The position numbers were made by a program, and so were the translations under genes. Positions 518 to 15,332 of a stretch of DNA of 16,426 nucleotides are shown in pieces. The stretch lies in IMG/VR virus record IMGVR_UViG_2609459799_000005; one strand, 5' to 3'. Position 1 is the stretch's first letter. Every line of letters begins with the position of its first letter. The stretch is from a virus (lineage: Duplodnaviria > Heunggongvirae > Uroviricota > Caudoviricetes). The notes under the pieces are model-generated. The model saw nothing but the letters and a program-made list of their open reading frames with translations, was not told the DNA's origin and searched no databases.

Positions 518-1186
518 ATGGTGAAATCAATGAAAAAAAACACAGATGATGGGGCTAAAATTTACACACCACTTACCCTAAAGCTTTATGACTGGTGGGT
601 TTTGGGAGTATCAAATCGGCTTGCATGGGGATGTCCTACAAAGGAACACCTTCTTCCACACTTTCTGGAACATGTAGGTAACAACCATCTGGATATTGGT
701 GTTGGAACTGGGTTTTACCTTACTCACGTACCTGAGAGTAGTCTGATATCTTTAATGGATTTGAACGAAGCTAGCCTGAACGCGGCATCTACAAGGGCTG
801 GGGAATCAAAAATTAAACATAAAATTAGCCATGATGTTTTTGAACCTTATCCCGCGGCGTTACATGGTCAATTTGATTCCATTTCCATGTTTTACCTTCT
901 TCACTGCCTGCCTGGAAATATATCTACAAAAAGCTGTGTAATACGCAATGCGGCGCAGGCCTTAACTGACGATGGAACTCTATACGGAGCCACAATTCTT
1001 GGCGATGGAGTTGTGCACAATAGCTTCGGTCAAAAACTGATGCGCATTTACAATCAGAAAGGCATCTTTTCAAACACAAAAGATTCCGAAGAAGGCTTAA
1101 CACATATACTCTCAGAGCATTTCGAGAATGTTAAAACCAAGGTTCAAGGTACTGTAGTAATGTTTTCCGCTTCAGGGAAAAAATAG
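518..1186 (+). CDS. Putative class I SAM-dependent methyltransferase-like protein (prophage moron); likely true start at the internal Met near 530
   Basis: 222-aa ORF in an AT-rich island. Gly-rich motif DIGVGTGFYL resembles SAM-binding motif I. A GGTGA Shine-Dalgarno precedes the second ATG (MKKNTDD...). Sits downstream of tfa, as ybcY does in DLP12 (from memory, not verified). Confidence 0.55.
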   Translation: MVKSMKKNTDDGAKIYTPLTLKLYDWWVLGVSNRLAWGCPTKEHLLPHFLEHVGNNHLDIGVGTGFYLTHVPESSLISLMDLNEASLNAASTRAGESKIKHKISHDVFEPYPAALHGQFDSISMFYLLHCLPGNISTKSCVIRNAAQALTDDGTLYGATILGDGVVHNSFGQKLMRIYNQKGIFSNTKDSEEGLTHILSEHFENVKTKVQGTVVMFSASGKK

Positions 1187-1193
1187 CATCCAA

Positions 1194-1226
1194 CCGCAGC
1201 ACGTTCTTGCTTAAGACGTGCTGCGG
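1194..1226. terminator. 11-bp perfect stem-loop between convergent methyltransferase-like gene and tfa
   Basis: ccgcagcacgt / acgtgctgcgg inverted repeat with an 11-nt loop. The U-tract is displaced on both strands, so terminator function is uncertain. Confidence 0.4.
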
Positions 1227-1240
1227 CATAATCCCAATGA

Positions 1241-1825
1241 TTACTCCCTGACAGGGTTCGTAGGCCACTCAATATCAGGTGCAGTTGATGTATCAACACG
1301 GTTCAGCAACACCCGATACTTTTTCCAGGCTTCCAGCAACGAGATTTCTTCCTCTGTTGCAATTTCCAGATCTGCAGCATCCTGAAGCGGCGCAATATGC
1401 TCGCTGGCTACCTGCATCAGGCTGTTTTTTGTTTCTTCCGCCTCCCGGATCCGGAACAGTTTTTCTGCTTCCGTATCCTTCACCCAGGCTGTGCCGTTCC
1501 ACTTCTGAAACTCCCCTTCCGGCGATAACCAGGTAACATTTTCCGGTAACGGACCGAGTTCAGAAATAAATAACTCGTCCCCTGACGCTACGTCATAAAC
1601 CGTTTTACCCCGATGGTCTTCAACGAGATGCCACGATGCCTCATCACTGTTGAAAACAGCCACAAAGCCAGCAGGAATATCTGGTGGTGCAATATCGGTA
1701 CTGTTTGCTGGCAGACCTGTATGAGGCGGAATATATGCGTCACCTTCACCAATAAATTCATTAGTTCCGGCCAGCAGATTATAAATTTTTATGGTCCGTG
1801 CTTGTTCACTCATTCTGAATGCCAT
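1241..1825 (-). CDS. tfa: Tail fibre assembly protein Tfa (lambda Tfa-like)
   Basis: 194-aa product [39 protein letters not shown]... is near-identical over its length to lambda Tfa as I recall it. The start overlaps the stf stop (ATGA overlap at 1825). Confidence 0.9.
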
Positions 1826-4800
1826 TATGCAAGCCTCACAATATAGTTAAATGCGATGTTTTTGACGGTGTTTTCCGCGTTACCCGCAGCGTTAACGGTG
1901 ATGGTGTGTCCATGTGAACCAATCGCAACGGAGTGCGTATGCGCACCAATACCTACAGTATGTGCATGTGCGCCAGAACTTGCTGCAGTACCAGACAGCG
2001 AGTGGGTATGAGCACCTGCTGACTGTGTCTGAATACGTTGATAATACGATCTATAGGAAGAAGTCTCCGGCCTTACTTGATACTGTGAATCCTGGACATA
2101 AGTGAACCCACCGCCATCATAAAATGCTAACGCAGAACCGCCGCCTCCTGGCCAACGAATACCATTACCATGAGTATGATCACCGGCAGACCCCGTAGAG
2201 CCACTCAGACTGTGCGTATGCGCCCCGGTGTTATTCGTGGATTTAGTGCCGTAATCAAACGACGATGTGGTTTTCGTCCCCAAATCCGTACTGGATGCGC
2301 TGGCGCTGTGGGTGTGCGATTTAATGCCGTCCTGTTCCTGAGACAATACGGCTCGATCACTGGCGGGCTTGCCCTTAATCGTCCAGCCACGCATATCAGG
2401 AATAACGCCTGACGGATAAGCCACTGCAAGTTTCGGGTAAGCAGATTTGTCAAAAGTCTGCCCCTGCATCAGGGCATAACCAGACGGAACGGTATCTGAT
2501 GGCCACGGGATTGGTGCACCGACTGGGTAGCTTTCTGGTGGAAGATTTTTCGAGGTATAAACTTCTGCCCAGTCTTCCTCAAAACCATAACCGTCTCTTG
2601 AAGAACGGTAGAACAGACCACCATTTCTGTAATGCGCCTTCATCTGCAGGGTCCGGCAACTTCCGACTCCGGTATAGAAGTTAACCAGAATATAGCTGTC
2701 GCCAGAGCGGGTGACATTGTAAGCGCCTGATTCGGCATTCCAGGGAACGGCTCCATCCGAATCCGCATAAGCCCCCGTCGAACGTCGGGCAAATGCACCA
2801 ATATTTTCCGGCGTGAGGTTAATATCCGCCGAGCCATCAAACTTAACACCGTTAATTTTTGGGTCTGCCGCAAGTTTCGTCGCGGTATCGGCGTTCCCCT
2901 TCAGTGCCCCGGTGATCCCATCAGTAACAGACAACGGACCTGAAATAGTCCCTCCAGTTGTTGACAGCGCTCCAATATCTGATGGTGTAGGTTTCTGATG
3001 TGAGCTATACATCGTATAAACAACACCATCGGTAACGCTGGAAGGCTTACTCGCTGAATATGTTAGCGAGGTATAAATAGAAACTGACGCATTTGTAGTA
3101 CAATCCCAATGGATATTTACACTCGTCGCATAATTGCCAATCTCAACGTAAATATCATATATATCGCCGGATGTGTTGATCCAGGCGAAATTCGTTAATC
3201 CGACGGCTGTACGCTTCCACAAAGCTCCGGTAATCCCTTTGGGGTTTCCATTGCCTGCTCGTAGAACCAGTTCAGATATACCTGCCTGTTGAGGTGCCCC
3301 CACGTTAAATCCAGCGCCACCAATCAATGCGATGTAAACGATGGAACTCGCTTGTGGCATGGTAACCGTTGCCAGTTTGAACCACCCTGCCCCGCCAGAG
3401 AAAGAGATCGTTACTGAATTTAAAGTGCCAATATCTTTCGGTGTTAATGTTATATCCGCAGTCAGTGCTTTCCCGTTAACTTTTCGGTTAGATGGTACCC
3501 TGCCATTCGCATTGTCATTCGCTGCTTTAACTGCCTTCGGTGTCGCGGCAAGCGTTTCAGATGTGCTGTTGGTTGCACTGCTGAGCTGTACTATCCCCTT
3601 TTTCGTCGTGCTCGCATCCTCAAGCGCCACGGCGGATGCAATATCCTCTGCCCGTTTTGCCGCTGTCTCGGCGCGCGTTGCCGCGGATTCCGCCGTACTT
3701 TTGCTCTGAGCTGCCGCCGTCGCACTGCCAGCTGCCTCTGTCGCCTTCGTGGATGCCGTCGTGGCGCTGCCCTTTGCTGCTGACGCCTGTCTGGTCGCCT
3801 CATCTTTTGAAGCAGACGCAGATGATGCCGATGACGCCGCTGAACTGGCTGACGATGCGGCTGCCGCCTTAGAGGAAGCAGCATTGTCTGCTGAAGTCTT
3901 TGCATTTGTTTCAGAGGTTTTTGCTGCAGAAGCAGACCTCGCTGCTGCAGTGGCTTGCTCAGTGGCTTTGCCAGCCTTCGTTGTGGCTGTTGAAGCGGAT
4001 GATGCGGCGCTTTCTGCCGATTTTCCGGCGGCGGTGGCACTGGCTGAGGCCTGCCCGGCACTTGTTGACGCGGCACTGGCAGATAATGCAGCCGCTGTTT
4101 TTGAACCTGCCGCAGTTGAGGCGCTCTGTCCCGCTGCTGTTTCAGAAGACTTAGCGTTCGTCTCGGACGTTTTTGCCGCCTTCGCGGAATTTCCTGCCGC
4201 CGTTGCCGAGGAAGCTGCACTACTGGCACTTGATGATGCATTCGTTTCTGAAGATTTCGCTGCCTCTTTTGAGGCCGCCGCACCCCGTGCCGAGGTGGCA
4301 GCTTCTGACGCCTTCGTGGTCGCTGTGGATGCAGAAGTGGCTGCCGATTTTTGTGATGCTGCGGCATTCGTTTCTGACGTTTTCGCGGCACTGGCGCTGG
4401 TAGCTGCCGCGCTTTTTGATGACTCTGCAGCAGCAGCACTTTTTGCTGCTTCACGGGCCTTTGTCGATGCCGTTCCTGCGCTGGAAGACGCTGACTGAGC
4501 CGACGACGCGGCCTGTCCGGCTGACGTGCTGGCGGCACGTGATGAGGCTGCAGCATCGGTTGCATGAGTTGCCGCCTCGCTGGCTGATGCACTGGCATCG
4601 CTGGCTGATTTTTTCGCGGCTGCCGTATTCTGTGCAACCGCGGAGGCGTTACGTGACACCTCTTCTACCATCTGCTCAAAGCGGCGCAGTGCCTCCGGTC
4701 GGACATCATCCTCCGTCATGGCACCGAGAAAATCATTCAGCGTACCTGGTCTGGAACCTTCATAGACGGTAATGGTCCCGGCATGTGAAGGCGGAAAACC

Positions 4801-4995
4801 TTCAACCAGCAGGGTGACGCTGTACTGACCATGCTCAACATCCATGCTGTAACGTCCGGCTTCATCCGGATTTTCAGAGGCCACCGTGTTCACCACCACC
4901 GTGCTGCTGGTTCGTCTGGCCTTCAGCACAATGGTGCAGTTCTGTACTGGTTTTCCTGTGCCATCTTTAAGCACGCCAGAAATTTTTACTGTCAT
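1825..4995 (-). CDS. stf: Side tail fibre protein Stf (lambda Stf-like, mosaic)
   Basis: 1056 aa. N-terminus [28 protein letters not shown]... matches lambda Stf. Long Ala/Ser/Thr-rich repeat tract with reiterated KTSETNA units. C-terminal His-rich GAHTHS / HxH motifs typical of Stf and gp37-type fibre tips. Shine-Dalgarno GGTGGAAAAG precedes the ATG. Confidence 0.9.
3590..4640 (-). repeat. Imperfect tandem repeat tract inside stf encoding the Ala/Ser/Thr-rich fibre shaft
   Basis: Reiterated GCx-rich units; peptide units such as [18 protein letters not shown] and [11 protein letters not shown] recur. Alternative frames on both strands give long spurious ORFs. Confidence 0.6.
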
Positions 4996-5146: not shown

Positions 5147-5434
5147 TCAGAAACGGTATCCGATACCAACAATAAATGCATCCGTTCGCCAGTCGCCACT
5201 ACCGGAACCTTCATAAGCGACATCAATGGCCACGGATTCGGTCGGGTTAAACTGCACGCCAGCTCCCCACGCCAGAGACGTGTTGCTGTGGCGACAGTCA
5301 TCACTTCCGGTCAGCACATCGTGCTTTTTCCCCTTGTTGTCAGTTACGCGGAGATAATCCCCGGAGAAAGTCGACACACGGCTGTAAGCCACACCCGCCA
5401 TCGCATACGCGCTGAACCATTCATTCAGCTGCGC
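5147..5434 (-). pseudogene. lom: C-terminal fragment of outer-membrane protein Lom (Ail/Lom family); N-terminal half deleted
   Basis: Frame reads ...SAYAMAGVAYSRVSTF...SLAWGAGVQFNPTESVAIDVAYEGSGSGDWRTDAFIVGIGYRF, matching the Lom C-terminus (AYEGSGSGDWRTDGFIVG). The reading frame opens only 11 codons upstream of the internal Met and overlaps the J stop. Confidence 0.7.
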
Positions 5435-7316
5435 TCACCTCCACCGTCAGGTGCTGCACTGCCGGTGGGATGACGCTGTTCAGGGAACCTGACTGCGGCT
5501 CAAAGCGGGCACCGTTATCCACGATGGCTTCTTTTTCCGGTACGTGCTGCACCGCCGTGATGGCAAAGGTGCCGTCCGTGTTTTCCCGGATGGAGACACA
5601 GCGGAACAGGCGACGGCGCAGTGACGGCAGGGAGAGTCCCCACACCCCGTATGTCTCCACACCATCAGGCAGGGTACTGACCTGTATCCGGTCCGGCGCG
5701 GGGTGTGCGGTGATGTCCACACTCACCGGCTTACCGCTGCCGTTAATCAGGTTCACCGCCGATGTACCTGTCTCCGGCAGGGTAACCTCACGGTCCAGCG
5801 TCAGGGTGCGGGTGGCAGCATCAATGGACAGGACACGTCCGCCGGTCAGGGTCCCGGCATAGTCATTATCACAGATTTCAATAATGTCACCGGGTGTGTG
5901 CCGCAGCCCCTGAGACCCGAGCGTGAAATCCACCGTCTGCGTTTCCAGCAGTTCGGTCTTTATCACCCACAGTCCGGCACGGTGGGCCTGACCGCGGCTG
6001 GTACAGCCGAACGCGTCCATCTTCAGCAGGTTGCGTCCGTAGCGCAGTATGGCTTCCGGGTCTTCCACCAGTTCCGTGGAGGTCTGCCAGCCGTTCTGCG
6101 GGTCGGTGTAATTCACCTCCACCGCCGTGTGCCGGTCCTTCAGGGCACTGAAGCTGTAGCGGAATCCCACGCCGTTATCATCCACCACCACATCGCTGTT
6201 GGTGTACGGCCACACCACATCCGACGGGCGGTCCTGAACGAACGTCAGCGTCTGACCGTTCCATACCGGCATACAGCGCATCGCAGAGCAGAAATCACTG
6301 AGAACGTCCCACGCCTTACGCTGTTGTGCCAGGTACGCATTAAAGGTCATCCGCGGCTCGGTCCCCCCGAAACCATCCGGGACCGTCTGGTCGCAGTACT
6401 GCCCGATGGCATACAGCGCCCACTTGTCCACATCCGCCGCCCCCAGACGTTTTCCCATGCCGTAGCGCGGGTGAGTCAGCATGTCCCACAGACACCAGGC
6501 CGGGTTGTTGCTGTATGCCGGTTTCAGACTGCCGTCCCAGATACCACTATACGTGCGTTTTTCCGGGTCATAGTTTGACGGCACCTGGATGATGCGACCG
6601 CGGATATGGTAGTTCACCGTCATCTGCTGGCCGCCGAACTGCTCCGCATCCACCTGCAGCCCCACAATGGCCGTGTTCGGGTAGCACTGTTTCACATCGA
6701 TGATTTCGGTGTATGACGACCACAGCGTCTTATTCTGCAGCTGGTCCGTGGTGCTGTCCGCCGTCTCCCTGACCATCCGGATGTTAAAGGGCCGGGGAGG
6801 CAGATTATCCAGAATCACCGAGGCCAGGAACTGTGAGGTGGTCTTGCCGTTAATGGTGACGTCCTTTTCTGTCACCCAGTTACCGTTACGCTGTAACTGA
6901 ATCAGCAGGCGGACGGATGCCGGGTTACGGTCACCCTTTGAGGTGGTCTCCACCAGTGACTGCACCCCGAAGGTAACCCGCAGGCGGTCAATGTTCGCGG
7001 ACGTAATGGTGCGCGTCACCGGTTTTGCCTTCGTCACTTCCACGCCCAGTCCGGTTTCAGCTCCGGAGGACTCAAAGCCTTCCGGTGGTGTCTGCTCCTG
7101 CTCCCCGGCGCGCCAGACCGCCGTCACACCGTGTATCACGGGATTGCCGTCCGTGTCCGTCAGTGGGGTTTTGTTCACCAGAATACTCTGCAGTCCCTTC
7201 ACCGGACCTTCTATCGGTCCCTCACCAATCGCATCAATCACGCTCATCATCTGCGTGGATTTGAGATTATCCTTCGCCTCACGAGGCGTGTGTGCCTTAC
7301 CGCCACCTTTTCCCAT
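5421..7316 (-). pseudogene. J: Tail tip / host specificity protein J, N-terminal 631 aa only (C-terminal receptor-binding part deleted)
   Basis: MGKGGGKAHTPREAKDNLKSTQMMSVIDAIGEGPIEGPV... is collinear with lambda J (about 1130 aa) up to ...PPAVQHLTVEV, then stops and abuts the lom fragment. Shine-Dalgarno GGGGAAGG precedes the ATG. Confidence 0.85.
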
Positions 7317-7420
7317 ACAGCCTTCCCCTGAATAAATTAACCGCCACTTGCCATTCCGTACAGAAGTCGGATATCCTTCGCCCGAAAAGCATGAAACACA
7401 TTTCTGCCATGCTAAAGAGA

Positions 7421-7448
7421 AACCCCGGTATCAGCAGATACCGGGGTT
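7421..7448. terminator. Strong 12-bp stem-loop (bidirectional terminator-like) in the I-J insert
   Basis: aaccccggtatc-agca-gataccggggtt perfect hairpin, followed by ttctttc on the plus strand and tctcttt on the minus strand. Confidence 0.5.
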
Positions 7449-7521
7449 TTCTTTCATGCCCACCGATAATCCTGTTGGTTAAAACCGGTAATGGCATAAA
7501 AATTCTGAATATCTTCACATT

Positions 7522-7549
7522 TTCACACACTGACTGTGGCGCTTATAAT
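7522..7549 (+). promoter_or_regulatory. Sigma70-like promoter candidate (TTCACA - 16 bp - TATAAT) reading toward the terminator at 7621-7654
   Basis: Near-consensus -35 and perfect -10 hexamers with a 16-bp spacer in an AT-rich insert. Predicted start site near 7556. Confidence 0.3.
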
Positions 7550-7620
7550 TTCGCTGCGTTAGTGTTTTTTTGCCCGAGTAACAAAAACAACTCCTTAACA
7601 TTGATCTTCATTTGTCTGTC

Positions 7621-7654
7621 CCCGCAGCTCCGCGATCACTGCGGGATTTTTTTA
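7621..7654 (+). terminator. Rho-independent terminator on the plus strand
   Basis: cccgcag-N11-ctgcggg stem-loop followed by attttttta. Confidence 0.55.
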
Positions 7655-7658
7655 TGTT

Positions 7659-8339
7659 TTATCCCTGTCGCCCGATAACCACGACCGTTCCGCCCCCACC
7701 TTCATCACGGGTGCTGATGTCCTGGGATATACGGCGGGAGCCAACCAGCATTTCCCCGTAAGGCACCGGCATCGGGTTCCCCTGGGCAATCATGTTATCC
7801 AGCGAGGAAAAGTACGTGTTCTGTCTGCCGTTATCCGTTGCGCGGTAATCCGGTGTTTTTGCCTTCGGGGCCAGCATCTGGGCCACACCGCCCAGAATCA
7901 TGCTGGCTCCAAGTGAAAACAGCATCGTGGTGGCAGAAAAACCACCGGCTGCCAGGGCTGAACCCCATAACGCCATTGATGCCCCGGCAGTGAAGAAAGA
8001 GCCCACGATGGCTGCCGCCCCCAGCACAATCTGCAGTCCACCCTTTCCGGCCCCGGCCAGTCGCGGCACAATATGGATGACCGTTCCCTCACCCAGCTGT
8101 TCGTGAAGACGGGCGTACACCGCCTCCGGTGCCGTGTCATAACCGGCAATACGTATCTGGTACCAGCCTTCGTTCATCTGACGGCGAAAGCCCGGCACCT
8201 GTAACGACAGCGCCCGGATGGCTTCCGCTGCCGTGTTCACATACAGGCTGAGGCGGCGGCCAAATCGTTGTAAATCCCCGTGAAGGCAGATGCGTGCCAG
8301 TGGCGGTGACGCCAGACAGAATGCGTTCGTCGTTGCCAT
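7659..8339 (-). CDS. I: Tail assembly protein I (lambda gpI-like)
   Basis: 226 aa. Conserved blocks ARICLHGDLQRFGRR, WYQIRIAG, VIHIVPRLAGAGKGG, LFSLGASMILGGVAQMLAPKAKTP and NTYFSSLDNMIAQGNPMPVPYGEM match lambda gpI. Shine-Dalgarno GGGAGAGG upstream. Confidence 0.85.
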   Translation of the reverse strand: MATTNAFCLASPPLARICLHGDLQRFGRRLSLYVNTAAEAIRALSLQVPGFRRQMNEGWYQIRIAGYDTAPEAVYARLHEQLGEGTVIHIVPRLAGAGKGGLQIVLGAAAIVGSFFTAGASMALWGSALAAGGFSATTMLFSLGASMILGGVAQMLAPKAKTPDYRATDNGRQNTYFSSLDNMIAQGNPMPVPYGEMLVGSRRISQDISTRDEGGGGTVVVIGRQG

Positions 8340-8393
8340 TTTTCGGAATACCTCTCCCGTTTACTCAGTTGTTCAGGCAGATGGTGAAGCAGC

Positions 8394-8885
8394 TCACCGT
8401 TGCCGCAGTAAATGGCGGCATGGTTCGGTATGGGTCTGTACCTGGCAGAGGTCATCCAGATCATCGTCACGTCGTACCATATCCCGGGCAGGGTTGAAGG
8501 CGTTGGCCGCCACCTCCACAGTCGGGGCCAGAATCGTGTAACCCGCCGCCTGCCGCCAGTTCAGTAACAGTGCAGTCATCATGATCCCCGCGGCCAGCGT
8601 GGACTTCGAGTTTTTCTTGGGGATAAGGATAAAAACTTCCTTGATATGGCGTACACCGGTCTGCGCATCGTAGGAGCCAAACAGGGCCGCCACCAGGTCA
8701 AACACCCACGGTGCACAGGACTCCCCGAACGTAGGGCTACCAGGTGCATCCACAATCCGCAGTTGTTTAAAAATCGCCAGGGCATGTGCGGCCTCGTCCG
8801 GATAAATCGGAGCCGGAATAATCGACAGCCCCTTTTTCAGGCGCTCTGCCCAGTCCGGGCAGGCTGTGCTCCATACAGGTATCAT
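8394..8885 (-). pseudogene. terL: Terminase large subunit, N-terminal fragment of about 163 aa (Terminase_1/HK97-type)
   Basis: Start overlaps the terS stop (ATGA). Contains a deviant P-loop-like segment (ILIPKKNSKSTLAAGIMMTALL) as in HK97-type TerL N-termini. The ORF ends after 163 aa, where full TerL is 450 aa or more, and gene I begins 55 bp downstream. Confidence 0.7.
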
Positions 8886-9445
8886 CCGTTGCCCTCATTA
8901 TCGTTATTCACCACCAGTCGGGGTGGCGGTGGCACCGCAAAACGGTTAGCCGCTTTTTTCGCGGCATCACCTTTTGCCGATTTTTTCCCGGTATCCCCTT
9001 TTTTATGGTGCGTGAACTGCGCCAGACGCCAGGCCGCATCCAGTGCCAGTTTCGGATCAATGCAGAGGTTTTCCACCAGGATCCGCCCCATGGCTTTCAC
9101 CGGATCGGGAAGACCATCCTCCATATATTCAATACCAGGAGACATCACCGCGGACGGTGGCATCTCCGGATTGTTTTCGTCCGGCTGTGGTATTGCAGCC
9201 GCCTCACGGCGACGGGGTTTATCCTCCTGCTCTGATTTTTTCTGCCGGTAAACAGGAACCTCATCCACCTCCACCGTCTCGCACTGTTTACGGGCTATAA
9301 ACGCGAGCACCTCCGGATCTTTTGCCAGCTGCGAGCCTTTAACCCTGGCTGTCTTCGCCGAATAACCGGCGGCAATGGCTGACGCTGTTTTGTTTTTCCC
9401 GGACATGAGCGCCAGCGCAAATTTTCGTTTTTGCGTTGTCAGCAC
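8882..9445 (-). CDS. terS: Terminase small subunit (Terminase_2/P27-type, N-terminal HTH)
   Basis: 187 aa. N-terminus MLTTQKRKFALALMSGKNKTASAIAAGYSAKTARVKGSQL... fits the conserved TerS signature (L-T-x-KQ-x-F ... A-A-x-x-AGYS-x-K-T-A). Immediately followed by terL. Confidence 0.75.
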   Translation of the reverse strand: MLTTQKRKFALALMSGKNKTASAIAAGYSAKTARVKGSQLAKDPEVLAFIARKQCETVEVDEVPVYRQKKSEQEDKPRRREAAAIPQPDENNPEMPPSAVMSPGIEYMEDGLPDPVKAMGRILVENLCIDPKLALDAAWRLAQFTHHKKGDTGKKSAKGDAAKKAANRFAVPPPPRLVVNNDNEGNG

Positions 9446-10540: not shown

Positions 10541-10765
10541 TCAACACACTGGTTGTAATGCAGCGGATACCATGCGGCATTTAGCGGCATTCATCGTACA
10601 CTCCACGGTTAGCTCTTCATTCGTGGCATTCACCTGAAAGGTCCGGGAGTGTAATTGCGTACATTTACCACTGAACGAACCTTCAACAAGAACACGACCA
10701 CGCTGCAAAATACGGAACGGAATTGTTCCCTGAAAAGGTTCTACGGTTACCCGTAATTTCTTCAT
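10541..10765 (-). CDS. Hypothetical 74-aa protein translationally coupled to Rz
   Basis: ATG overlaps the Rz stop (ATGA). No signal peptide or recognisable motif. A bor-like or moron function is possible but unsupported. Confidence 0.4.
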
Positions 10766-11256
10766 GTATCCTCCGGATAATAAAAAGCCAGCTTAGTGCA
10801 CTGAGTGCGGATATATTCCTGCGCCCCTTCCAGCTGCTTCTGCATTGTCATCAACCGTTCTCTGAGGATGAAATAATCCCGTTCAGCGGTGTCTGCCAGT
10901 CGGGGGCCGGTTGCATTATCCACGCTGGAGGTGCCGGTGGCTTCACGCACGGTACCGGGGCAGGTGGCGTTGACCCGCAGGCGCTTACGACCAGCGGCAA
11001 CATCAGCGCGCAGAGTTTCATTTTCAGCTCTCGCATCGGCTAATTCCTTCGTGTATCTGGCATCAAGCGCAGCGACATCTCGCTGGCGCTGCTGCATGTC
11101 AGTAATAGTGGCATTCGCCAGTTTCAGCTCACTGACTTTTTTATCGCGCTGCGCTTTGTAGGTGATGGCGTTATCGCGGTAATGATTCAGCCCCAGACTA
11201 AGCACACCACAGGCTACCAGCATGACAATAATCACCACACACAGAACACGGTTCAT
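10762..11256 (-). CDS. Rz: Rz i-spanin (inner-membrane spanin subunit)
   Basis: From the internal Met: [39 protein letters not shown]...[25 protein letters not shown], collinear with lambda Rz. The 28-codon N-terminal extension in the ORF track is judged spurious. Confidence 0.85.
10851..11036 (-). CDS. Rz1: Rz1 o-spanin lipoprotein, embedded in Rz in an alternative frame
   Basis: [51 protein letters not shown] has a lipobox (VSAC) and a Pro-rich body closely matching lambda Rz1. The true start is probably the Met at about 11021. Confidence 0.85.
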
Positions 11257-11257
11257 A

Positions 11258-11344
11258 TCACCACCAACGGATTGCCCAGACCAGAACAGCAATGGCCACA
11301 ATACGAATGGCAAATGCCATTGCCCGAATAAGTTCAGCACTCAT
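11258..11344 (-). CDS. Candidate small hydrophobic peptide b (28 aa, [28 protein letters not shown]); stop overlaps the Rz start region
   Basis: ATG ORF whose TGA lies 1 nt upstream of the Rz ATG (TGATATG). Paralogous to peptide a (9 identical and about 10 conservative positions; several codon differences are synonymous). Weak Shine-Dalgarno. Confidence 0.3.
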
Positions 11345-11355
11345 CTTTTTAAAGT

Positions 11356-11472
11356 TCACGATTTCAGCGCAATGACCAGTTTTGCCAGCCCATATAGCAT
11401 CGGAGACACAGCAATACCAACAGCCACCCACTTAATAGCAAAAGCCAGCGCTCTGCTGATGTCATCAGTCAC
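11356..11472 (-). CDS. Candidate small hydrophobic peptide a (about 38 aa, GTG start, (M)TDDISRALAFAIKWVAVGIAVSPMLYGLAKLVIALKS)
   Basis: C-terminal part of the TTG-initiated 90-aa ORF in the track. Start chosen at a GTG preceded by GGGG; shares the motif RAxAFAI(K/R)xVA with peptide b. Confidence 0.3.
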   Translation of the reverse strand: MTDDISRALAFAIKWVAVGIAVSPMLYGLAKLVIALKS

Positions 11473-11474
11473 TG

Positions 11475-11606
11475 TCACCCCAGCAGCCCCGACGAAGACA
11501 ACATCACCCAGGCGAGGGACAGAAAAAGAGCAACCAGCATTAGTGAAAATGAAATACCGACAATCACACACAGGACCTTTGCCGGCGTTATGAGTTTGTC
11601 TGACAT
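11475..11606 (-). CDS. Candidate small membrane peptide (43 aa, MSDKLITPAKVLCVIVGISFSLMLVALFLSLAWVMLSSSGLLG)
   Basis: ATG preceded by a strong Shine-Dalgarno AAGGGG with a 5-nt spacer. One predicted transmembrane helix. Below the 60-aa cutoff of the ORF track. Confidence 0.35.
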   Translation of the reverse strand: MSDKLITPAKVLCVIVGISFSLMLVALFLSLAWVMLSSSGLLG

Positions 11607-11608
11607 AG

Positions 11609-11704
11609 CTACCCCTTAATTGCCACAATTAACTGGGATACTACCCATAAAAAAGGGATGCTCCAGACCAGCAAAAATTTCCAGTTTGGTAATTGACTAA
11701 TCAT
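11609..11704 (-). CDS. Candidate small membrane peptide (31 aa, MISQLPNWKFLLVWSIPFLWVVSQLIVAIKG)
   Basis: ATG preceded by AGGGAG with a 9-nt spacer. Its stop TAG lies inside the Shine-Dalgarno/start region of the next small ORF. One predicted transmembrane helix. Confidence 0.3.
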   Translation of the reverse strand: MISQLPNWKFLLVWSIPFLWVVSQLIVAIKG

Positions 11705-11775
11705 GAGTCGCAACTCCCTAATCAGTTTGCTAAAATCAATCAAGGCAGCCTCCCATAGCTTACTGCCATAAAAAC

Positions 11776-11808
11776 AAAACCCCGCTTGCTGCCAACAAAC
11801 GGGGTTTT
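11776..11808 (-). terminator. Rho-independent terminator immediately downstream of the endolysin gene (stem-loop usable on both strands)
   Basis: aaaaccccg-N15-cggggtttt, followed on the minus strand by ttttgtttttat. Confidence 0.6.
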
Positions 11809-11898: not shown

Positions 11899-12432
11899 TT
11901 ATCTGTCGATACCCCAGCACGCCAGCGCGCTCTCCTGGTCACGACGGGATACCTGACCGTAGCAGTTGTTTGAACGAATACGGCAGTCTCTGCCACCGTC
12001 CTTAATCCACCAGCGAATCGCCTCACACGCTCCCCTGCGGTCACCAGCATTCAGCCGCTTATAAAACGTCGACGGGAAACACTTACCGGGGCCAATGTTA
12101 TAGGGACAGAATGACGCTATACCCGCTTTCTGTGGTTCGGTCAGTGGAACTTTAATATTGCGCTCCACCCATGCCAGCGCCTTATCCCGTTCAATGGCAT
12201 TAACCTGGTCGCATTTTTCCTTCGACAGTTTCATGCCCGGAATAACAGGTTTACCATCCACCATTGTGGCACCGCGGCAGATGGTCCAGATACCCGCACC
12301 ATCACGGTATGCCGTTGTGTGGTTACCTTCTTTTTCATCCAGAAACTGGTCGAGAATATCAGGCGCAGGCGCACCGATGGCAATCAACGCCAGAACGGCA
12401 GCCGACAGGCCATATTTGATTTTGGTGTTCAT
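11899..12432 (-). CDS. R: Phage endolysin (lysozyme), probable SAR-type with N-terminal hydrophobic segment
   Basis: 177 aa. YGLSAAVLALIAIGAPAP hydrophobic N-terminus, then EGNHTTAYRDGAGIWTICRGAT... typical of lambdoid prophage lysozymes (RrrD-like, from memory). Confidence 0.9.
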   Translation of the reverse strand: MNTKIKYGLSAAVLALIAIGAPAPDILDQFLDEKEGNHTTAYRDGAGIWTICRGATMVDGKPVIPGMKLSKEKCDQVNAIERDKALAWVERNIKVPLTEPQKAGIASFCPYNIGPGKCFPSTFYKRLNAGDRRGACEAIRWWIKDGGRDCRIRSNNCYGQVSRRDQESALACWGIDR

Positions 12433-12488
12433 GGATATTTATCAGGATTTATCGGTTCCGAATCCCTGGATATGTTAAATCTTCAGCC

Positions 12489-12515
12489 CGCCAGCGGTAG
12501 GACACTGGCGTTTTT
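12489..12515 (+). terminator. Terminator-like hairpin on the plus strand between the endolysin start and the divergent 104-aa gene
   Basis: cgccag-N10-ctggcg followed by ttttt. Could be an attenuator or leader element, or a stop for transcription antisense to R. Confidence 0.4.
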
Positions 12516-12560
12516 CCTGATGGCTGAAATATATCTGACAATTTCAGTAGAGGATTAACC

Positions 12561-12875
12561 ATGCATAACGATCAACATAATTATGATTTATGCCTGCAAG
12601 CCATAAATGAGCGGGTAAAATCAGAGTGCCTCTTACTCCTCCCACAAGAACACGATGCAGTAAAATCCATTCAGGCTGAGCCGTATGGACATCTCACACC
12701 TGTGACTCTCGGCATTATCGCCAGAGCATTAACACAGCCCATGCTTATGCGTATTAAGACCAATATAAATAACTGGTTGAATGAAGAATTAAGCTACCTT
12801 GATTGTGAGTGGGACAATCATTACGCAAAAACACAAAAAGAACGCATCTTCAGTCGATTATCCAGCAACAGATAA
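12561..12875 (+). CDS. Hypothetical protein (104 aa), AT-rich moron occupying the position where a holin gene is expected
   Basis: ATG with Shine-Dalgarno GAGGA and a 7-nt spacer. Roughly 40 percent GC against about 53 percent in flanking phage genes. No transmembrane segment or recognisable motif. Convergent with the nanS-like gene and divergent from R. Confidence 0.5.
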   Translation: MHNDQHNYDLCLQAINERVKSECLLLLPQEHDAVKSIQAEPYGHLTPVTLGIIARALTQPMLMRIKTNINNWLNEELSYLDCEWDNHYAKTQKERIFSRLSSNR

Positions 12876-12884
12876 CGAGCCACC

Positions 12885-14594
12885 TTATATACGCCCTTTC
12901 AGATAAGTCATCCCCGGCTGCATCCAGTCAACAGGTGCTTTCTTAAAGGGCGTATTCCCGAACTCGCCCAACTTTGTGTTTCCTGCTTTCTTGTGATGCA
13001 TCAGATTCAGTTTGCCGTCTGTGGTCTGGGTGAAGAACGACATCAGGAACGGGTTACCAGTCCCGGTCATCGCCACGACGTCAGGTAACGCTACATCGGT
13101 ATACAGATAAATTCCCAGACCGAACTGGTTGTTGGTCAGTGCGCCTGACAGTCGAAACTTACAGCTCAGTCTGCCACCCCGTGTCAGCAGGGAGACTGCG
13201 TCATCCACCGGGCGCGTCAGGGACCAGGCTTTATTGCTCTGCTTGGTGATCTTAAATACACCATCTGACAACTGAATTCCGCCATTCTTAATGCTCCAGC
13301 CCTGCGCAGCAGCATCTCCGGCTGTCGGCAACAGGGAGATTGTGCGTACGGATGCATCTTCAGACGGCCCCGATGGCGTGTCGCCGCCGGGCGAGGGTTT
13401 GATTTCCGGTGCCTTACCACTAATGAAGGCTAAGGTGCGACCGGCTACGTTCAGAATAGCAGTTGCCATACGATCGGGAATAATGCCACGACGCGCCCAT
13501 GAGCTGAAATGCGTCGGGCGATTTGATGATACCCAGTTTTTGTTCGTTCGGGATGCCGAACCGTAATAACCAGACCCGACAATATCAGGATCTTCTGACG
13601 GGTTGTTTGTCGGTGTATTAACTCCGCTACCATCGGTCATAAAGGGAACAAAATAAATCTGCTGGGATTCTTTACCTTTATATGCACCATATACCACTTC
13701 ATATTGTGTACCGTGTTCTTGTTTCCACGCGTATGTCGTGTCGCCACAAATCCAGGGGACTGATGCCGGACTTCCACCGTGACACTGCGCCGCCAGCCCG
13801 GCAAGGTCAGCACGGAACTGCTGTACCATTGCAAGAAATGCTGCTGGCTGCTGGGCGTAACTGGCATTCTTCATATCGAATTCCCCCTGCATCCAGCATA
13901 TCGCCAGCAAAACGTTTTTCGGGTTTTTCTGCAATGCTGCCTTCGTGCGGAAAAGCAGATCCTGATATAACGGCTTACCCACTCCCCAGCGAGCCGAATC
14001 CTGACTGGCCCCCGTGGACTCGCTGAATGTCCCCTCCGTGCCCTGGGTGAATGCCGAACCACCACGACAGCATGGTACCAGCAGGATCCCCGCATTATTA
14101 GGGATATACGGAAGCAGTTTTTTGGCAATATGTAAGCCCTGTCCGACACAGCCGTACTGCCCTTTGCTCAGGTCAGCCCGGGGATGGTTAATCGTACTCA
14201 TATCCTGAACATCATGCAGACAATGGTCAGCAGGAATGATGTCGTTAAATACGCATACTTCACCACCGGGAGTCACTGTGTTACGACGGGCCAGTTGCTT
14301 AATGCGCGGATGGGGCGCATCGTATGAATCCGGAAGCGGAAGCCCTTCACCGTAAGCCATGGCATTAGACTGCCCGGCCAGTACGATGACGTAGTACCAC
14401 TCCGGCTCAGTTGCACCACTGACGACCACATCACCTTCTGCGACAATCGCCTGAATAAGTGCTGCGCCATCATCCGTATACGAAGAAAACGGCCCGCCGT
14501 ATGGTTGCCATCCTTCACGAATTTTTTGAGCAAGTGCATCAGCAAGGTCTGACGGCGATACCGCCCTGACAACATCATAGTGTTTAAATGCCAT
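12885..14594 (-). CDS. nanS: Prophage sialate O-acetylesterase (NanS-p-like; N-terminal DUF1737-like region plus SASA/SGNH-type esterase domain)
   Basis: 569 aa. YYVIVLAGQSNAMAYGEG carries the GQSN catalytic-serine motif of 9-O-acetylesterases. Position between the tRNA module and the lysis genes mirrors nanS-p in EHEC lambdoid prophages. Confidence 0.8.
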   Translation of the reverse strand: MAFKHYDVVRAVSPSDLADALAQKIREGWQPYGGPFSSYTDDGAALIQAIVAEGDVVVSGATEPEWYYVIVLAGQSNAMAYGEGLPLPDSYDAPHPRIKQLARRNTVTPGGEVCVFNDIIPADHCLHDVQDMSTINHPRADLSKGQYGCVGQGLHIAKKLLPYIPNNAGILLVPCCRGGSAFTQGTEGTFSESTGASQDSARWGVGKPLYQDLLFRTKAALQKNPKNVLLAICWMQGEFDMKNASYAQQPAAFLAMVQQFRADLAGLAAQCHGGSPASVPWICGDTTYAWKQEHGTQYEVVYGAYKGKESQQIYFVPFMTDGSGVNTPTNNPSEDPDIVGSGYYGSASRTNKNWVSSNRPTHFSSWARRGIIPDRMATAILNVAGRTLAFISGKAPEIKPSPGGDTPSGPSEDASVRTISLLPTAGDAAAQGWSIKNGGIQLSDGVFKITKQSNKAWSLTRPVDDAVSLLTRGGRLSCKFRLSGALTNNQFGLGIYLYTDVALPDVVAMTGTGNPFLMSFFTQTTDGKLNLMHHKKAGNTKLGEFGNTPFKKAPVDWMQPGMTYLKGRI

Positions 14595-14815: not shown

Positions 14816-14820
14816 GTCCA

Positions 14821-14845
14821 TAAGAAAGCCCCTCCGGAGAGGGGC
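14821..14845 (-). terminator. Rho-independent terminator on the minus strand downstream of the tRNA module
   Basis: gcccctc-cgga-gaggggc, followed on the minus strand by tttctta. Confidence 0.5.
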
Positions 14846-15082
14846 TGGAGAGTGGCGCTATGTGCCATTGCATGGTGCCGGGTGCCTCCCGGTGAATTCA
14901 GTACCAGCACCTGAATCCGCGATTATCCCATATACCTACTCGCTGATTGCCCCTCCGCACAGGGGGATTCACCATGCCAGTTTCTTTTAACAAACTCCCC
15001 GCAAAACAGACAACTGTCAACCGTCTGAATTGTGAGACATTTAAAAAAAAGGCCCGCAAAAGCGAGCCAGGGAAAATAAGTG

Positions 15083-15159
15083 TGGCGCGTTGTACTGGAT
15101 TCGAACCAGTGACCGATTGCTTAGAAGGCAATTGCTCTGTCCGGCTGAGCTAACAACGC
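15083..15159 (-). tRNA. tRNA-Arg (anticodon UCU), phage-encoded
   Basis: Manual fold: acceptor GCGTTGT/ACAACGC, D-stem GCTC/GAGC, anticodon stem ATTGC/GCAAT with loop CTTCTAA, T-arm ACTGG-TTCGAAT-CCAGT, discriminator G, encoded CCA. Confidence 0.85.
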
Positions 15160-15172
15160 ATGATGCAGATAA

Positions 15173-15249
15173 TGGACCGCCATCGGGGACTCGAACCCCG
15201 CGCAACCAGCTTCGAAGGCTGGCGCTCTATCCTGATGAGCTAATGGCGG
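15173..15249 (-). tRNA. tRNA-Arg (anticodon UCG), phage-encoded
   Basis: Manual fold: acceptor CCGCCAT/ATGGCGG, D-stem GCTC/GAGC, anticodon stem CCAGC/GCTGG with loop CTTCGAA, T-arm CGGGG-TTCGAGT-CCCCG, encoded CCA. C1:G72 and a U discriminator are unusual. Confidence 0.75.
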
Positions 15250-15256
15250 TATGTGA

Positions 15257-15332
15257 TGGTGGCCCTTGCTGGATTTGAACCAGCGACCTGGCGATTATGA
15301 GTCGCTCGCTCTCACCACTGAGCTAAAGGGCC
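15257..15332 (-). tRNA. ileZ: tRNA-Ile2 (anticodon CAU, lysidine-type), phage-encoded
   Basis: GGCCCTTTAGCTCAGTGGTGAGAGCGAGCGACTCATAATCGCCAGGTCGCTGGTTCAAATCCAGCAAGGGCCACCA is very similar to E. coli tRNA-Ile2 (ileX). First gene of the three-tRNA module found downstream of Q in Stx-type lambdoid phages. Confidence 0.85.

What the first reader, a model, noticed from the sequence alone, without database searches (positions are those of the whole stretch)
11258..11704. Cluster of four tandem tiny hydrophobic ORFs, two of them paralogous, inserted between endolysin and Rz
In lambda-type lysis cassettes the R stop overlaps the Rz start. Here about 640 bp sit between them, beginning with a strong terminator right after R. 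The insert holds four consecutive small ORFs (31, 43, about 38 and 28 aa), each with one predicted transmembrane helix. Two have strong Shine-Dalgarno sequences (AGGGAG, AAGGGG), and the last ends 1 nt before the Rz ATG, implying Rz translation is coupled to it. Peptides a and b align from their start codons (MTDDISRALAFAIKWVAVGI / [20 protein letters not shown]), and several codon differences are synonymous (GCG/GCA, GCT/GCC, GTG/GTC), which suggests selection on the peptide. They could be toxin-like membrane peptides, lysis regulators (antiholin or minimal holin), or a new moron family. None was in the ORF track, which cuts off at 60 aa.
Basis: partly seen in the sequence, partly recalled or inferred. 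Interest (0 to 1): 0.7.

Follow-up and report, generated by a model that had tools for sequence, protein, structure and literature searches.

The report
Small membrane-protein genes in lysis cassette
Between the cell-wall-degrading enzyme gene and the outer-membrane-disrupting gene of this defective E. coli prophage lie four real, conserved genes for tiny membrane peptides. They are common in Shiga-toxin and other lambda-like phages and are already catalogued as 'hypothetical proteins', but nobody has shown what they do.

Summary
On the minus strand, between endolysin R (11899-12432) and Rz (10762-11256), there is a strong terminator followed by four butt-joined small ORFs. Each has one hydrophobic helix, and the last stops 1 nt before the Rz ATG.

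Two details need correcting. The ORFs are also not unannotated: RefSeq calls them hypothetical proteins, and they fall in PHROGs 6632 (a), 4906 (b) and 1115/4493 (c, d).

All four have their lowest dN/dS in the proposed frame (0.15-0.43). The c/d paralogy is significant. A b homologue in O157 Sakai (XECs191) has weak published Ribo-seq support.

The cluster is a mosaic. About 390 nt (a's 3' end, b, c, most of d) replace about 43 nt of a simple 45-aa a-type gene that in SPN3UB and CP-1639 sits alone before Rz.

The families occur after three unrelated endolysin types, mostly just upstream of the spanin, but occasionally elsewhere.

Function is unknown. My best guess is late-expressed accessory membrane proteins of the lysis module. 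Cargo or pure translational-coupling roles remain open. The sequences are catalogued but uncharacterised; interest is moderate.

The parts
11899..12432 (-). Endolysin R: a lysozyme with a hydrophobic N-terminal stretch, which I read as R21/SAR-type.
   Evidence: PF00959 at 2.8e-25 and phrog_7 'endolysin'. The N-terminal hydrophobic stretch LSAAVLALIAIGAPAPDIL has KD 1.88. The SAR assignment is an inference from that feature and was not tested.
11776..11808 (-). Strong, roughly symmetric intrinsic terminator hairpin that opens the inserted module.
   Evidence: 15-bp stem plus T-run; -21.4 kcal/mol, z = -4.07. A similar hairpin precedes a-, c- and d-type genes in SPN3UB, SEN34, CP-1639, the Salmonella prophages L098 and L095, and L104.
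11609..11743 (-). It has an amphipathic N-terminal helix followed by one TM helix, and belongs to phrog_6632 in its 'IKG' C-terminal variant.
   Evidence: phrog_6632 scores 1.3e-12 for the 70-aa GTG-start form (PGAP's call) against 6e-5 for the 31-aa form. tblastn finds 60% identity over residues 1-43 in Salmonella phages. 74 protein clusters occur across Enterobacteriaceae genera and Providencia, with modal length 45 aa. dN/dS is 0.29 for codons 2-27. The AF2 model has mean pLDDT 81 with helices 4-17 and 20-43. The ORF is disrupted in L088 (stop codon) and L061 (frameshift).
11475..11606 (-). ORF b, 43 aa: a single TM helix, predicted N-in, phrog_4906. It starts 2 nt after a's stop, with an AAGGGG SD formed by a's last codons.
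   Evidence: phrog_4906 at 4.5e-21. 204 protein clusters, all E. coli/Shigella, with lengths overwhelmingly 43-49 aa. The ORF is intact at 58-100% aa identity; dN/dS is 0.43, the lowest of the six frames. It sits just upstream of Rz in VT2-Sakai and phiON-2011. The Sakai homologue XECs191 has Ribo-seq support. AF2 pLDDT is 86 with helix 3-38.
11356..11472 (-). ORF c, 38 aa from GTG 11472 (40 aa from GTG 11478, which overlaps b's TGA; PGAP calls a 51-aa CTG-start form). It carries the core of the phrog_1115/4493 family but lacks the family's usual N-terminal MKNGLELKAP extension.
   Evidence: phrog_1115 at 6.4e-25. 69 clusters in E. coli and Salmonella; the core AFAIKWVAVGIAVSPMLYGLAKLVIALKS is nearly invariant. 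Core dN/dS is 0.15, with variable sites by codon position 10/1/17. It is 95% nt-identical to the O157-type c gene.
11258..11344 (-). ORF d, 28 aa: a short paralogue of c with an '...IRWW*' C-terminus. Its stop lies 1 nt before the Rz ATG.
   Evidence: The c/d alignment beats 4999 of 5000 shuffles. phrog_4493 at 3.8e-6. An intact variant with 5 conservative substitutions sits before Rz in L092. A full-length d-type with a c-like N-terminus occurs in phiSTEC1575-Stx2k. dN/dS is 0.31 from 6 sequences. L008 carries an in-frame codon insertion.
11254..11269 (-). Conserved junction CGT TGG TGG TGA T ATG: the last codons of d (R-W-W-stop) plus the Rz start codon. GGUGGUGA is a probable Rz ribosome-binding site and recombination joint.
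   Evidence: The same junction follows a-type genes in SPN3UB and CP-1639, and follows the d-type gene before a 60-aa lipoprotein gene in L104. Homology to CP-1639 and SPN3UB resumes at 11272-11277. The RBS role is inferred, not tested.
11273..11662 (-). The mosaic segment (a's 3' part, b, c and most of d). It replaces about 43 nt of a simple a-type gene.
   Evidence: Against CP-1639 and SPN3UB, blastn homology runs from R through the terminator to 11663 and resumes at 11272-11277. The subject gap is 43 nt against about 390 nt in the window.
10762..11256 (-). Rz i-spanin, with the Rz1 o-spanin embedded at 10851-11036.
   Evidence: PF03245 at 4.4e-51 and PF06085 at 1.7e-21.

Best explanation
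Shown:
- The interval is a mosaic array of genes from three catalogued but uncharacterised families of tiny single-pass membrane proteins: a (phrog_6632), b (phrog_4906) and c/d (phrog_1115/4493).
- These families populate the endolysin-to-spanin junction of lambda-like (pro)phages of E. coli, Salmonella and relatives.
- They evolve by swapping N- and C-terminal halves and whole genes.

Inferred:
- No promoter follows the terminator. The genes are therefore probably made only when Q-antiterminated late transcription reads through it, at the same time as holin, endolysin and spanin.
- Ribosomes probably pass from one cistron to the next. a's last codons form b's SD, b's stop overlaps or abuts c's GTG, and d's R-W-W-stop codons form the Rz ribosome-binding site.
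- The peptides insert in the inner membrane (a and b N-in).
- They most likely act as dispensable accessory factors that tune the timing or efficiency of envelope disruption through helix-helix contacts in the membrane. This would resemble other non-essential lysis-cassette membrane proteins such as P2 LysA.

In this particular window the prophage is a remnant without a holin gene, so the cluster is probably idle here.
For: Real genes:
- The proposed frame has the lowest dN/dS of the six frames for all four ORFs: a 0.26-0.29, b 0.43, c 0.15, d 0.31.
- ORF lengths are kept across 58-100% aa identity in 204 (b), 69 (c) and 74 (a) protein clusters.
- The Sakai b homologue has Ribo-seq support: LB translatome 12.6 RPKM, coverage 0.55, RCV 0.43 (PMC5597208).

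Link to the lysis module:
- 76 of 87 analysed sequences (the window plus 86 loci; 80 of the loci were selected for b) show R-a-b-c-d-Rz.
- Other layouts include R-ant-b-Rz in VT2-Sakai, phiON-2011 and L100; R-c-b-Rz in an O157-type prophage (L089) and PhiR5_2; endolysin-a-Rz in SPN3UB; and R-c-Rz in Salmonella.
- The same families follow unrelated endolysins: GH108 (L094) and M15 peptidase (L104).

Late expression:
- No sigma-70-like promoter lies on the minus strand between the terminator and a.
- Cistrons are separated by -4 to 11 nt.
- The RWW*-ATG junction is conserved.

Other support:
- Membrane insertion is supported by KD 1.9-2.9 and helical AF2 models.
- Positional precedent: P2 lysA lies between endolysin K and spanin lysB and is annotated 'nonessential; affects timing of lysis'.
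- Phages deposited as complete genomes with E. coli C or K-12 listed as host (PhiR5_1, PhiR5_2, the PhiR12 series) carry the genes.
Against: - No experiment or homology links any of the four peptides to lysis.
- Pfam, NCBIfam, PADLOC and PDB give nothing, apart from one sub-threshold NCBIfam hit for c (E 0.16).
- The families are absent from K-12 Qin and, from my own knowledge, from lambda, 21 and P22. They are therefore dispensable.
- They are not confined to lysis cassettes. An a-type gene sits in the baseplate operon of Salmonella phage SEN34. Two tandem c-type genes sit between a NanS-p-like gene and a DUF1353 gene in a Salmonella remnant.
- The same slot carries clearly non-lysis cargo (the ant antirepressor) in Stx phages.
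- Association with three endolysin types and several holin types argues against a specific partner.
- ORF a is broken in 2 of 86 analysed a copies.
- The dN/dS values rest on 4-11 sequences and non-independent pairs.
- The Ribo-seq signal is weak, comes from uninduced cultures, and may suffer from multi-mapping among Sakai's many lambdoid prophages.
Confidence: 0.4

Rival explanations
1. Mobile cargo unrelated to lysis. Each 'terminator + small membrane-protein gene' unit would be a moron-like passenger that lands in permissive junctions of late operons. It would serve some other purpose, such as superinfection exclusion at the inner membrane, modulation of a host membrane protein, or a benefit to the lysogen.
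For: - The units travel with their own hairpin and a shared leader (CTGCACCTTGAnGAAGGCAAGGGAGAAC). They appear in a baseplate operon (SEN34) and beside a NanS-p-like gene and DUF1353 (L095) as well as in lysis cassettes.
- The R-Rz slot also hosts ant.
- Presence, absence and copy number vary freely.
- L093 keeps a duplicated 3' end of R after the inserted c gene, which is a footprint of insertion by recombination.
- XECs191 reads came from uninduced cultures.
Against: - No promoter was detected, and the terminator is upstream rather than downstream.
- The genes are tightly butt-joined to Rz or the next gene.
- The overwhelming majority of occurrences lie between endolysin and spanin.
- There are no PADLOC hits.
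Confidence: 0.25
2. Cis-acting bridge. The ORFs would matter mainly because translating them delivers ribosomes, and an RBS, to Rz after foreign DNA separated Rz from R. The peptides themselves would be by-products.
For: - Rz is normally coupled to R by a 4-nt overlap, as in K-12 Qin.
- Every variant ends with an ORF stopping within a few nt of the Rz ATG.
- The conserved CGN-TGG-TGG-TGA-n-ATG joint resembles an SD.
- a's terminal AAG GGG supplies b's SD.
Against: - Pure coupling predicts open frames with dN/dS near 1. Observed values are 0.15-0.43 and frame-specific.
- Residues far from the junctions are conserved across genera: the a N-terminus and the c core.
- a-type and c-type genes occur where no Rz follows.
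Confidence: 0.15
3. Toxic membrane peptides of the type I toxin or minimal-holin kind. They would depolarise the membrane on their own and serve addiction, abortive infection, or as back-up holins.
For: Size (28-45 aa), a single very hydrophobic helix and short polar ends resemble Hok, Ibs and TisB-type toxins in general form (the resemblance is from my own knowledge of those families). Cassettes with SAR endolysins need only depolarisation for lysis.
Against: - No antisense or adjacent sRNA family was found (Rfam), and no promoter.
- Up to 12 matching places occur per genome without any recognisable antitoxin.
- There is no similarity to pinholin at profile level.
- The peptides remain intact in this holin-less remnant without obvious harm.
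Confidence: 0.07
4. Chance ORFs in hydrophobic-looking filler DNA that do not encode anything.
For: - The ORFs are very short.
- d has no clear SD.
- Start codons for a and c are ambiguous, and pipelines disagree on them.
- a is disrupted in two loci.
Against: - Selection is frame-specific in all four.
- Hundreds of protein clusters have fixed length.
- Indels are in-frame.
- There is Ribo-seq support for b.
Confidence: 0.03

Closest known systems
PHROG families phrog_6632, phrog_4906, phrog_1115/phrog_4493/phrog_3246, and the RefSeq clusters WP_001043230, WP_001280935, WP_042004856, WP_032140280
   Same: The four ORFs are members. E-values range from 4e-6 to 6e-25 for the four short peptides (1e-12 for a in its longer form), and identical proteins are annotated in hundreds of E. 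coli genomes.
   Different: These are catalogue entries with 'unknown function', so they say nothing about mechanism. Their models often include spurious N-terminal extensions produced by gene callers.
XECs191, a 'novel small gene' of E. coli O157:H7 Sakai (Huecker et al. 2017, PMC5597208)
   Same: It is a b-family homologue (MMGWLMISDKLITLVKSLCVLVGISFLVMLVAIFFSTAWRVLTLSGLVG). It was predicted to be an inner-membrane protein with 1 TM and passed the paper's Ribo-seq thresholds in LB.
   Different: It is about 65% identical to the window's b and sits after ant in a Stx-type prophage. It appears only in supplementary lists of 465 candidates and no function was studied.
Phage P2 LysA
   Same: It is a membrane-protein gene lying between endolysin (K) and i-spanin (lysB), annotated as non-essential and affecting lysis timing.
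   Different: It is 141 aa with several hydrophobic segments. It shows no sequence similarity to a-d (shuffle tests: 416-1233 of 2000 shuffles score as well).
Phage Mu releasin gp25 (DUF2730; PMC9239132)
   Same: It is a small single-TMD protein encoded within a few genes of a SAR endolysin, and it helps release that endolysin.
   Different: It is 99 aa, N-out/C-in, with a 73-aa acidic cytoplasmic domain, and belongs to Pfam DUF2730. None of a-d hits that family, and they are half the size or less.
S21-type pinholin and its antiholin form (PF04971)
   Same: It is encoded in the same cassettes (L001, L089, L100). c shares a short KWVAVGIAVS / QWAAIGVLGS resemblance with pinholin TMD2.
   Different: Pinholins have two TMDs and 68-71 aa. 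hhalign gives probability 1.7% over 11 columns. The only hybrid found (P0062) is on a single 554-bp contig with a 10-nt shared word.
Lambdoid morons (for example bor, lom, HK97 gp15)
   Same: They are optional, horizontally shuffled small genes inserted at gene boundaries of late operons, and often encode membrane proteins.
   Different: The classical moron has its own promoter upstream and a terminator downstream. Here no promoter was found, the terminator is upstream, and the genes are coupled to Rz.

Membership tests
PHROG small-protein families 6632 / 4906 / 1115-4493 | A significant HMM match over most of the peptide | tested here: met
   a: 1.3e-12 (70-aa GTG-start form). b: 4.5e-21. c: 6.4e-25. 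d: 3.8e-6. All.
Mu releasin (DUF2730) | A match to DUF2730, with an N-terminal TMD plus a roughly 70-aa acidic cytoplasmic domain | tested here: not met
   No Pfam hit at E <= 1. The peptides are 28-44 aa with no soluble domain. gp25's features are taken from PMC9239132.
Class II holin / pinholin (PF04971) | Two TMDs, about 68-71 aa, and a match to the family profile | tested here: not met
   No Pfam hit. Each peptide has one hydrophobic segment. hhalign of the c family against pinholins gives probability 1.7%.
i-spanin (Rz, PF03245) | An N-terminal TMD followed by a periplasmic coiled-coil domain of about 100 aa or more | tested here: not met
   The tails after the TMD are 2-14 residues long. 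There is no PF03245 hit.
P2 LysA-like lysis-timing protein | Sequence similarity to LysA | tested here: not met
   Local alignment scores lie within the shuffle distribution for all four peptides.
P2 LysA-like lysis-timing protein | A non-essential gene between endolysin and spanin whose loss changes lysis timing | not testable with these tools
   The position matches. The phenotype needs genetics.
Moron | Its own sigma-70 promoter upstream | tested here: not met
   No promoter-like site lies on the minus strand between 11808 and 11743. The consensus scan is crude, so a weak or non-sigma-70 promoter is not excluded.
Moron | A factor-independent terminator downstream of the gene | tested here: not met
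   The strong terminator lies upstream of a. d runs directly into Rz. Four weak 5-bp-stem matches to the scan's terminator-like pattern, at 11459-11445, 11324-11309, 11311-11295 and 10729-10714, lie downstream of ORF a's start: three are inside c and d and the last is beyond Rz. I judged them not credible as terminators.
Type I toxin-antitoxin | A cis- or trans-encoded antisense RNA controlling a toxic small ORF that has its own promoter | tested here: inconclusive
   No Rfam family falls in 10.7-12.5 kb and no promoter was found. Novel sRNAs cannot be excluded, and toxicity was not tested.
Anti-phage defence systems (PADLOC) | A match to any defence-system protein model | tested here: not met
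   0 families at E <= 1.

The most novel reading that the evidence does not exclude
The a, b and c/d peptides may form a previously unrecognised class of minimal, combinatorially shuffled transmembrane-helix regulators of phage lysis. Each 28-45-aa helix would dock onto holin, SAR-endolysin or spanin transmembrane segments to set the lysis clock. In Stx phages such as 933W and VT2-Sakai, the b gene just upstream of Rz would thereby influence when, and how much, Shiga toxin is released.
Probability: 0.25. Interest if true: 0.65.

Novelty: already known. Interest (0 to 1): 0.38.

Why it matters
As sequences these genes are already catalogued, so the value lies in what the comparison shows.

- About a third of complete E. 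coli genomes carry conserved, selected and probably translated micro-membrane-protein genes, mostly in or beside phage lysis cassettes. Major Stx phages are among the carriers.
- In many phage records these genes are unannotated or mis-started, and they have never been studied.
- If they tune lysis, they would affect burst timing and Shiga-toxin release.
- If they are cargo, they are an unusually compact example of mosaic evolution, with N- and C-terminal halves and gene-boundary RBS joints being swapped.

Either way they are cheap to test genetically. Practically, the analysis gives better start sites (a is 44 aa from TTG 11743). It also warns that the longer pipeline calls (70-aa a, 51-aa c, 90-aa PHROG models) are probably artefacts.

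Tried and rejected
- Pinholin origin of c. A shuffle test gave z = 3.6-4.5 against S21-type holins, and a holin-N/c-C hybrid protein exists (P0062). However, hhalign gave probability 1.7% over 11 columns. The hybrid rests on one 554-bp contig with only a 10-nt shared word. Rejected as unsupported.
- Mu releasin and P2 LysA membership. There is no DUF2730 hit and no similarity to LysA.
- Pfam, NCBIfam, PADLOC, and PDB sequence searches with the b and c profiles. Nothing, apart from one sub-threshold NCBIfam hit for c (MFS_OXA_tail_dom, E 0.16).
- Rfam on the whole window. Nothing in the interval.
- Promoter scan. No minus-strand site lies between the terminator and a.
- Exhaustive HMM search of 1.84 billion representatives with the b profile. 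Only 28 clusters were found, with no informative larger relatives.
- K-12 counterpart. Qin has R and Rz overlapping with no insert.
- Literature. Accession and term searches found no functional study. Only the Sakai Ribo-seq list mentions a homologue.
- The 123-aa plus-strand ORF 11222-11593, antisense to b-d. Its frames show no reduced dN/dS beyond the expected antisense echo, and it is not annotated. Rejected.
- The small peptides plus the 60-aa lipoprotein in L094 and L104 as a miniature spanin. Both partners are far too short to span the periplasm. Left as an open oddity.
- Fold search was not run, because single helices give meaningless fold matches.
Full report
**What is there.**
- The genes in this part of the window are on the minus strand.
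- R (11899-12432) is a PF00959 lysozyme with a weakly hydrophobic N-terminal stretch. Rz (10762-11256) carries an embedded Rz1 at 10851-11036.
- R and Rz are separated by 642 nt. In K-12 Qin the homologous rrrQ and rzpQ overlap by 4 nt.
- The gap opens with a 15-bp-stem terminator at 11808-11776 (-21.4 kcal/mol, z = -4.1).
- Four butt-joined ORFs follow: a (stop at 11609), b (11475-11606), c (11356-11472 or 11478) and d (11258-11344). d's TGA is followed by one T and then the Rz ATG.
- Each ORF has one 19-residue segment with KD hydropathy of 1.9-2.9.
- AlphaFold2 with family alignments models a as a short helix (4-17), a Leu-Pro break and a long helix (20-43). It models b as a single helix 3-38.

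**The paralogy holds.**
- c and d align from their starts with a score that 1 of 5000 composition-preserving shuffles reaches.
- Six of the nine identical residues use different codons.
- Both peptides hit phrog_4493 and phrog_3246.
- Bridging forms exist. P0048 (MNAELLRAAAFAIKWVAVG...LKS) has a d-like N-terminus on a c body. Phage phiSTEC1575-Stx2k encodes a longer d-type with a c-like N-terminus (MKGIEVETPASLDLTRAAAFAIRLVAVAVLIWAVRWW).

- ORF a is probably 44 aa, starting at TTG 11743 with GGGAGG 5 nt upstream. tblastn with the longer form finds 60% identity over residues 1-43 in Salmonella phages SPN3UB, FSL SP-016 and SEN34.
- A profile search finds 74 clusters in Escherichia, Salmonella, Citrobacter, Enterobacter, Klebsiella, Trabulsiella and Providencia. 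The modal length is 45 aa and the N-terminus [IF]DFSKLIRE[LI]R.M is conserved.
The 'AGGGAG' is therefore Arg-Glu codons.
- The ORFs are not unannotated. PGAP calls them hypothetical proteins, and they belong to PHROGs of unknown function.

**Are they genes?**
- I collected 11 (b), 10 (c), 6 (d) and 4-5 (a) distinct DNA variants from the fetched loci.
- The proposed frame has the lowest Nei-Gojobori dN/dS of all six frames for every ORF: b 0.43, c core 0.15, d 0.31, a 0.26-0.29, and 0.17 for the RWW-type a genes.
- Third-position changes dominate; for c the variable sites by codon position are 10/1/17.
- ORF length is fixed over 58-100% identity in 204 b clusters.
- Among 22 near-identical 706-bp intervals the ORFs carry 11 SNPs (6 synonymous) and one indel.
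- Disruptions are rare. a has a stop in L088 and a frameshift in L061, while L008 has an in-frame codon insertion in d.
- Published Ribo-seq of O157:H7 Sakai lists a b homologue, XECs191, among 465 intergenic candidates. Its LB values are transcriptome 30.0 RPKM, translatome 12.6 RPKM, RCV 0.43 and coverage 0.55, against thresholds of 1 RPKM, 50% coverage and RCV 0.25 (PMC5597208).
- That signal is weak, comes from uninduced cultures, and may be affected by multi-mapping.
- The dN/dS samples are small and the pairs are not independent.

**Distribution and anatomy elsewhere.**
- The 463-nt a-d segment is 100% identical to E. coli 55989. Some part of it occurs in 1842 of 5426 complete E. coli genomes, and the whole in 590.
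- In the phage collection 281 records match, mostly Stx-converting phages.
- Arrangements are modular:

| Arrangement | Where |
|---|---|
| R-a-b-c-d-Rz | 76 of 87 analysed sequences (window plus 86 loci); 80 loci chosen for b |
| R-ant-b-Rz | VT2-Sakai, phiON-2011, L100 |
| R-c-b-Rz | O157-type prophage L089, PhiR5_2 |
| a-b-c-b2-Rz | L045 |
| R-X-c-d-Rz | L092 |
| R-c-(remnant of R's 3' end)-Rz | L093 |
| endolysin-a-Rz | SPN3UB |
| a-Rz | CP-1639 |
| R-c-Rz | Salmonella |

- The families also follow unrelated endolysins. GH108 with two other holins is followed by c, b and a 60-aa lipoprotein (L094). An M15 peptidase is followed by a d-type gene and the same lipoprotein (L104).
- Exceptions to the lysis context exist. 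An a-type gene sits in the SEN34 baseplate operon. Two tandem c-type genes lie between a NanS-p-like gene and DUF1353 in a Salmonella remnant.

**How the window's cluster arose.**
- Against CP-1639 and SPN3UB, homology runs from R through the terminator into a as far as 11663. It resumes at 11272-11277, the last codons of d, and continues into Rz. The subjects have 43 nt where the window has about 390.
- The cluster is therefore a replacement inside a simple a-type gene that ended in ...IRWW*.
- a keeps the ancestral 5' half with an alternative '...LIVAIKG*' end, whose AAG GGG supplies b's SD.
- c is 95% identical to the O157-type c gene but has lost that family's own N-terminal extension.
- d brings back the RWW* end.
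- N-terminal modules (IDFSKLIREL... or MKNGLELKAPVTDD...) and C-terminal modules (...LVIALKS*/...LIVAIKG* or ...IRWW*) occur in all four combinations.
- The CGN-TGG-TGG-TGA-n-ATG-AAC-CG joint is shared before Rz and before the lipoprotein gene. I infer that it is both an RBS and a recombination joint.

**Mechanism.**
- *Shown:* these are small, selected, helical, hydrophobic proteins whose genes are chained to Rz behind a terminator, with no detectable promoter.
- *Inferred:* they are expressed late by Q-dependent read-through, translated by coupling, and inserted in the inner membrane (a and b N-in by the positive-inside rule).
- *Most likely role (about 0.4):* dispensable accessory factors of envelope disruption. 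This rests on their strong but not exclusive residence between endolysin and spanin, and on the positional precedent of P2 lysA.
- *Rivals:* unrelated mobile cargo (0.25), a cis-acting bridge for Rz translation (0.15), toxin-like peptides (0.07), and noise (0.03).
- In this window the prophage is a remnant, so the cluster cannot be doing lysis work here. It has no holin. TerL is cut to 163 aa and directly followed by the tail-assembly gene I, and J and Lom are truncated.

**Comparison with known systems.**
- The ORFs are members of the PHROG and RefSeq families named above.
- They are not members of DUF2730 releasins, pinholins, i-spanins, LysA or any PADLOC family.
- They do not have the canonical moron layout.

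**Verdict.** The unanswered functional question, and their presence next to Rz in major Stx phages, give the finding moderate interest.

Noticed in passing
window 12433-12884 and the whole window: No holin gene lies upstream of R. tblastn with S21-type holin and YdfR finds nothing. Instead a 104-aa plus-strand ORF (12561-12875, phrog_1853) and a NanS-p-like esterase gene (12885-14594, phrog_143) abut R. The lysis cassette here is incomplete.
   Followed up: partly
window 5147-9445: The prophage is a deletion remnant. It has a TerS gene (8882-9445) and a 163-aa TerL fragment (8394-8885) directly followed by tail-assembly gene I (7659-8339). J is truncated (5421-7316, 631 aa) and only the C-terminal 84 aa of Lom remain (5147-5401). 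The head genes and most tail genes are missing.
   Followed up: partly
window 14816-15332: An STnc100 sRNA (Rfam, 139 bits) and three tRNA genes (Arg-tct, Arg-tcg, Met-cat) sit between a DNA methylase gene and the NanS-p-like gene. I recognise this as the layout found around stx in Stx phages, but no stx gene is present here.
   Followed up: partly
window 1284-1482: There is a full-length Rfam 'IS009' match (223 bits) on the minus strand, lying inside the tail-fibre assembly gene (1241-1825).
   Followed up: no
window 10541-10765: A 74-aa ORF (phrog_2571, unknown function) overlaps the Rz stop by 4 nt, and a homologue follows the lysis region in Salmonella prophages (L097, 69 aa). L094 also has a 69-aa ORF at the same position, but it matched a different family (phrog_3909).
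   Followed up: partly
L094 8107-8289; L104 1886-2068: In lambdoid prophages with GH108 or M15 endolysins and no recognisable Rz/Rz1, the small peptides are followed by a conserved 60-aa lipoprotein-like gene. It reads MNRKHWTHRMPRT..LVGC, has three further Cys, and belongs to phrog_7528. It starts at the same RWW*-ATGAACCG joint. How these phages disrupt the outer membrane is unclear.
   Followed up: partly
P0062 (single 554-bp ENA contig): A 59-aa protein joins the N-terminal half of an S21-type pinholin to the C-terminal half of peptide c at a shared QW/KW-VA-VG motif. It is either a microhomology recombinant or an assembly chimera.
   Followed up: partly
L045 (IMG/VR UViG 2548876865_000013): A variant cluster, a-b-c-b2-Rz, has a second, 58%-identical b paralogue (MSRKLIMLGEILWVIVCISFSATLIALLLSMAWMTLNSAGLVG) in the position of d.
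   Followed up: partly
L093 1430-1504: A 75-nt duplicate of the 3' end of the lysozyme gene (NCYGQVIRRDQESALACWGIDQ*) remains between an inserted c-type gene and Rz. This is a footprint of insertion by recombination at the R/Rz boundary.
   Followed up: partly
L092 approx. 1920-2070 (minus strand): A further small hydrophobic ORF (MTPKAANIAGIILALSAMIGAIGFAVAAIAYVCR), unrelated to a-d, precedes the c-type gene in strain VTB97448v. This suggests that more micro-protein families use the same slot.
   Followed up: no
window 1825-4995: The 1056-aa tail-fibre gene has a long Ala/Ser/Thr-rich low-complexity region. It generates several long spurious ORFs in other frames and on the opposite strand.
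   Followed up: no
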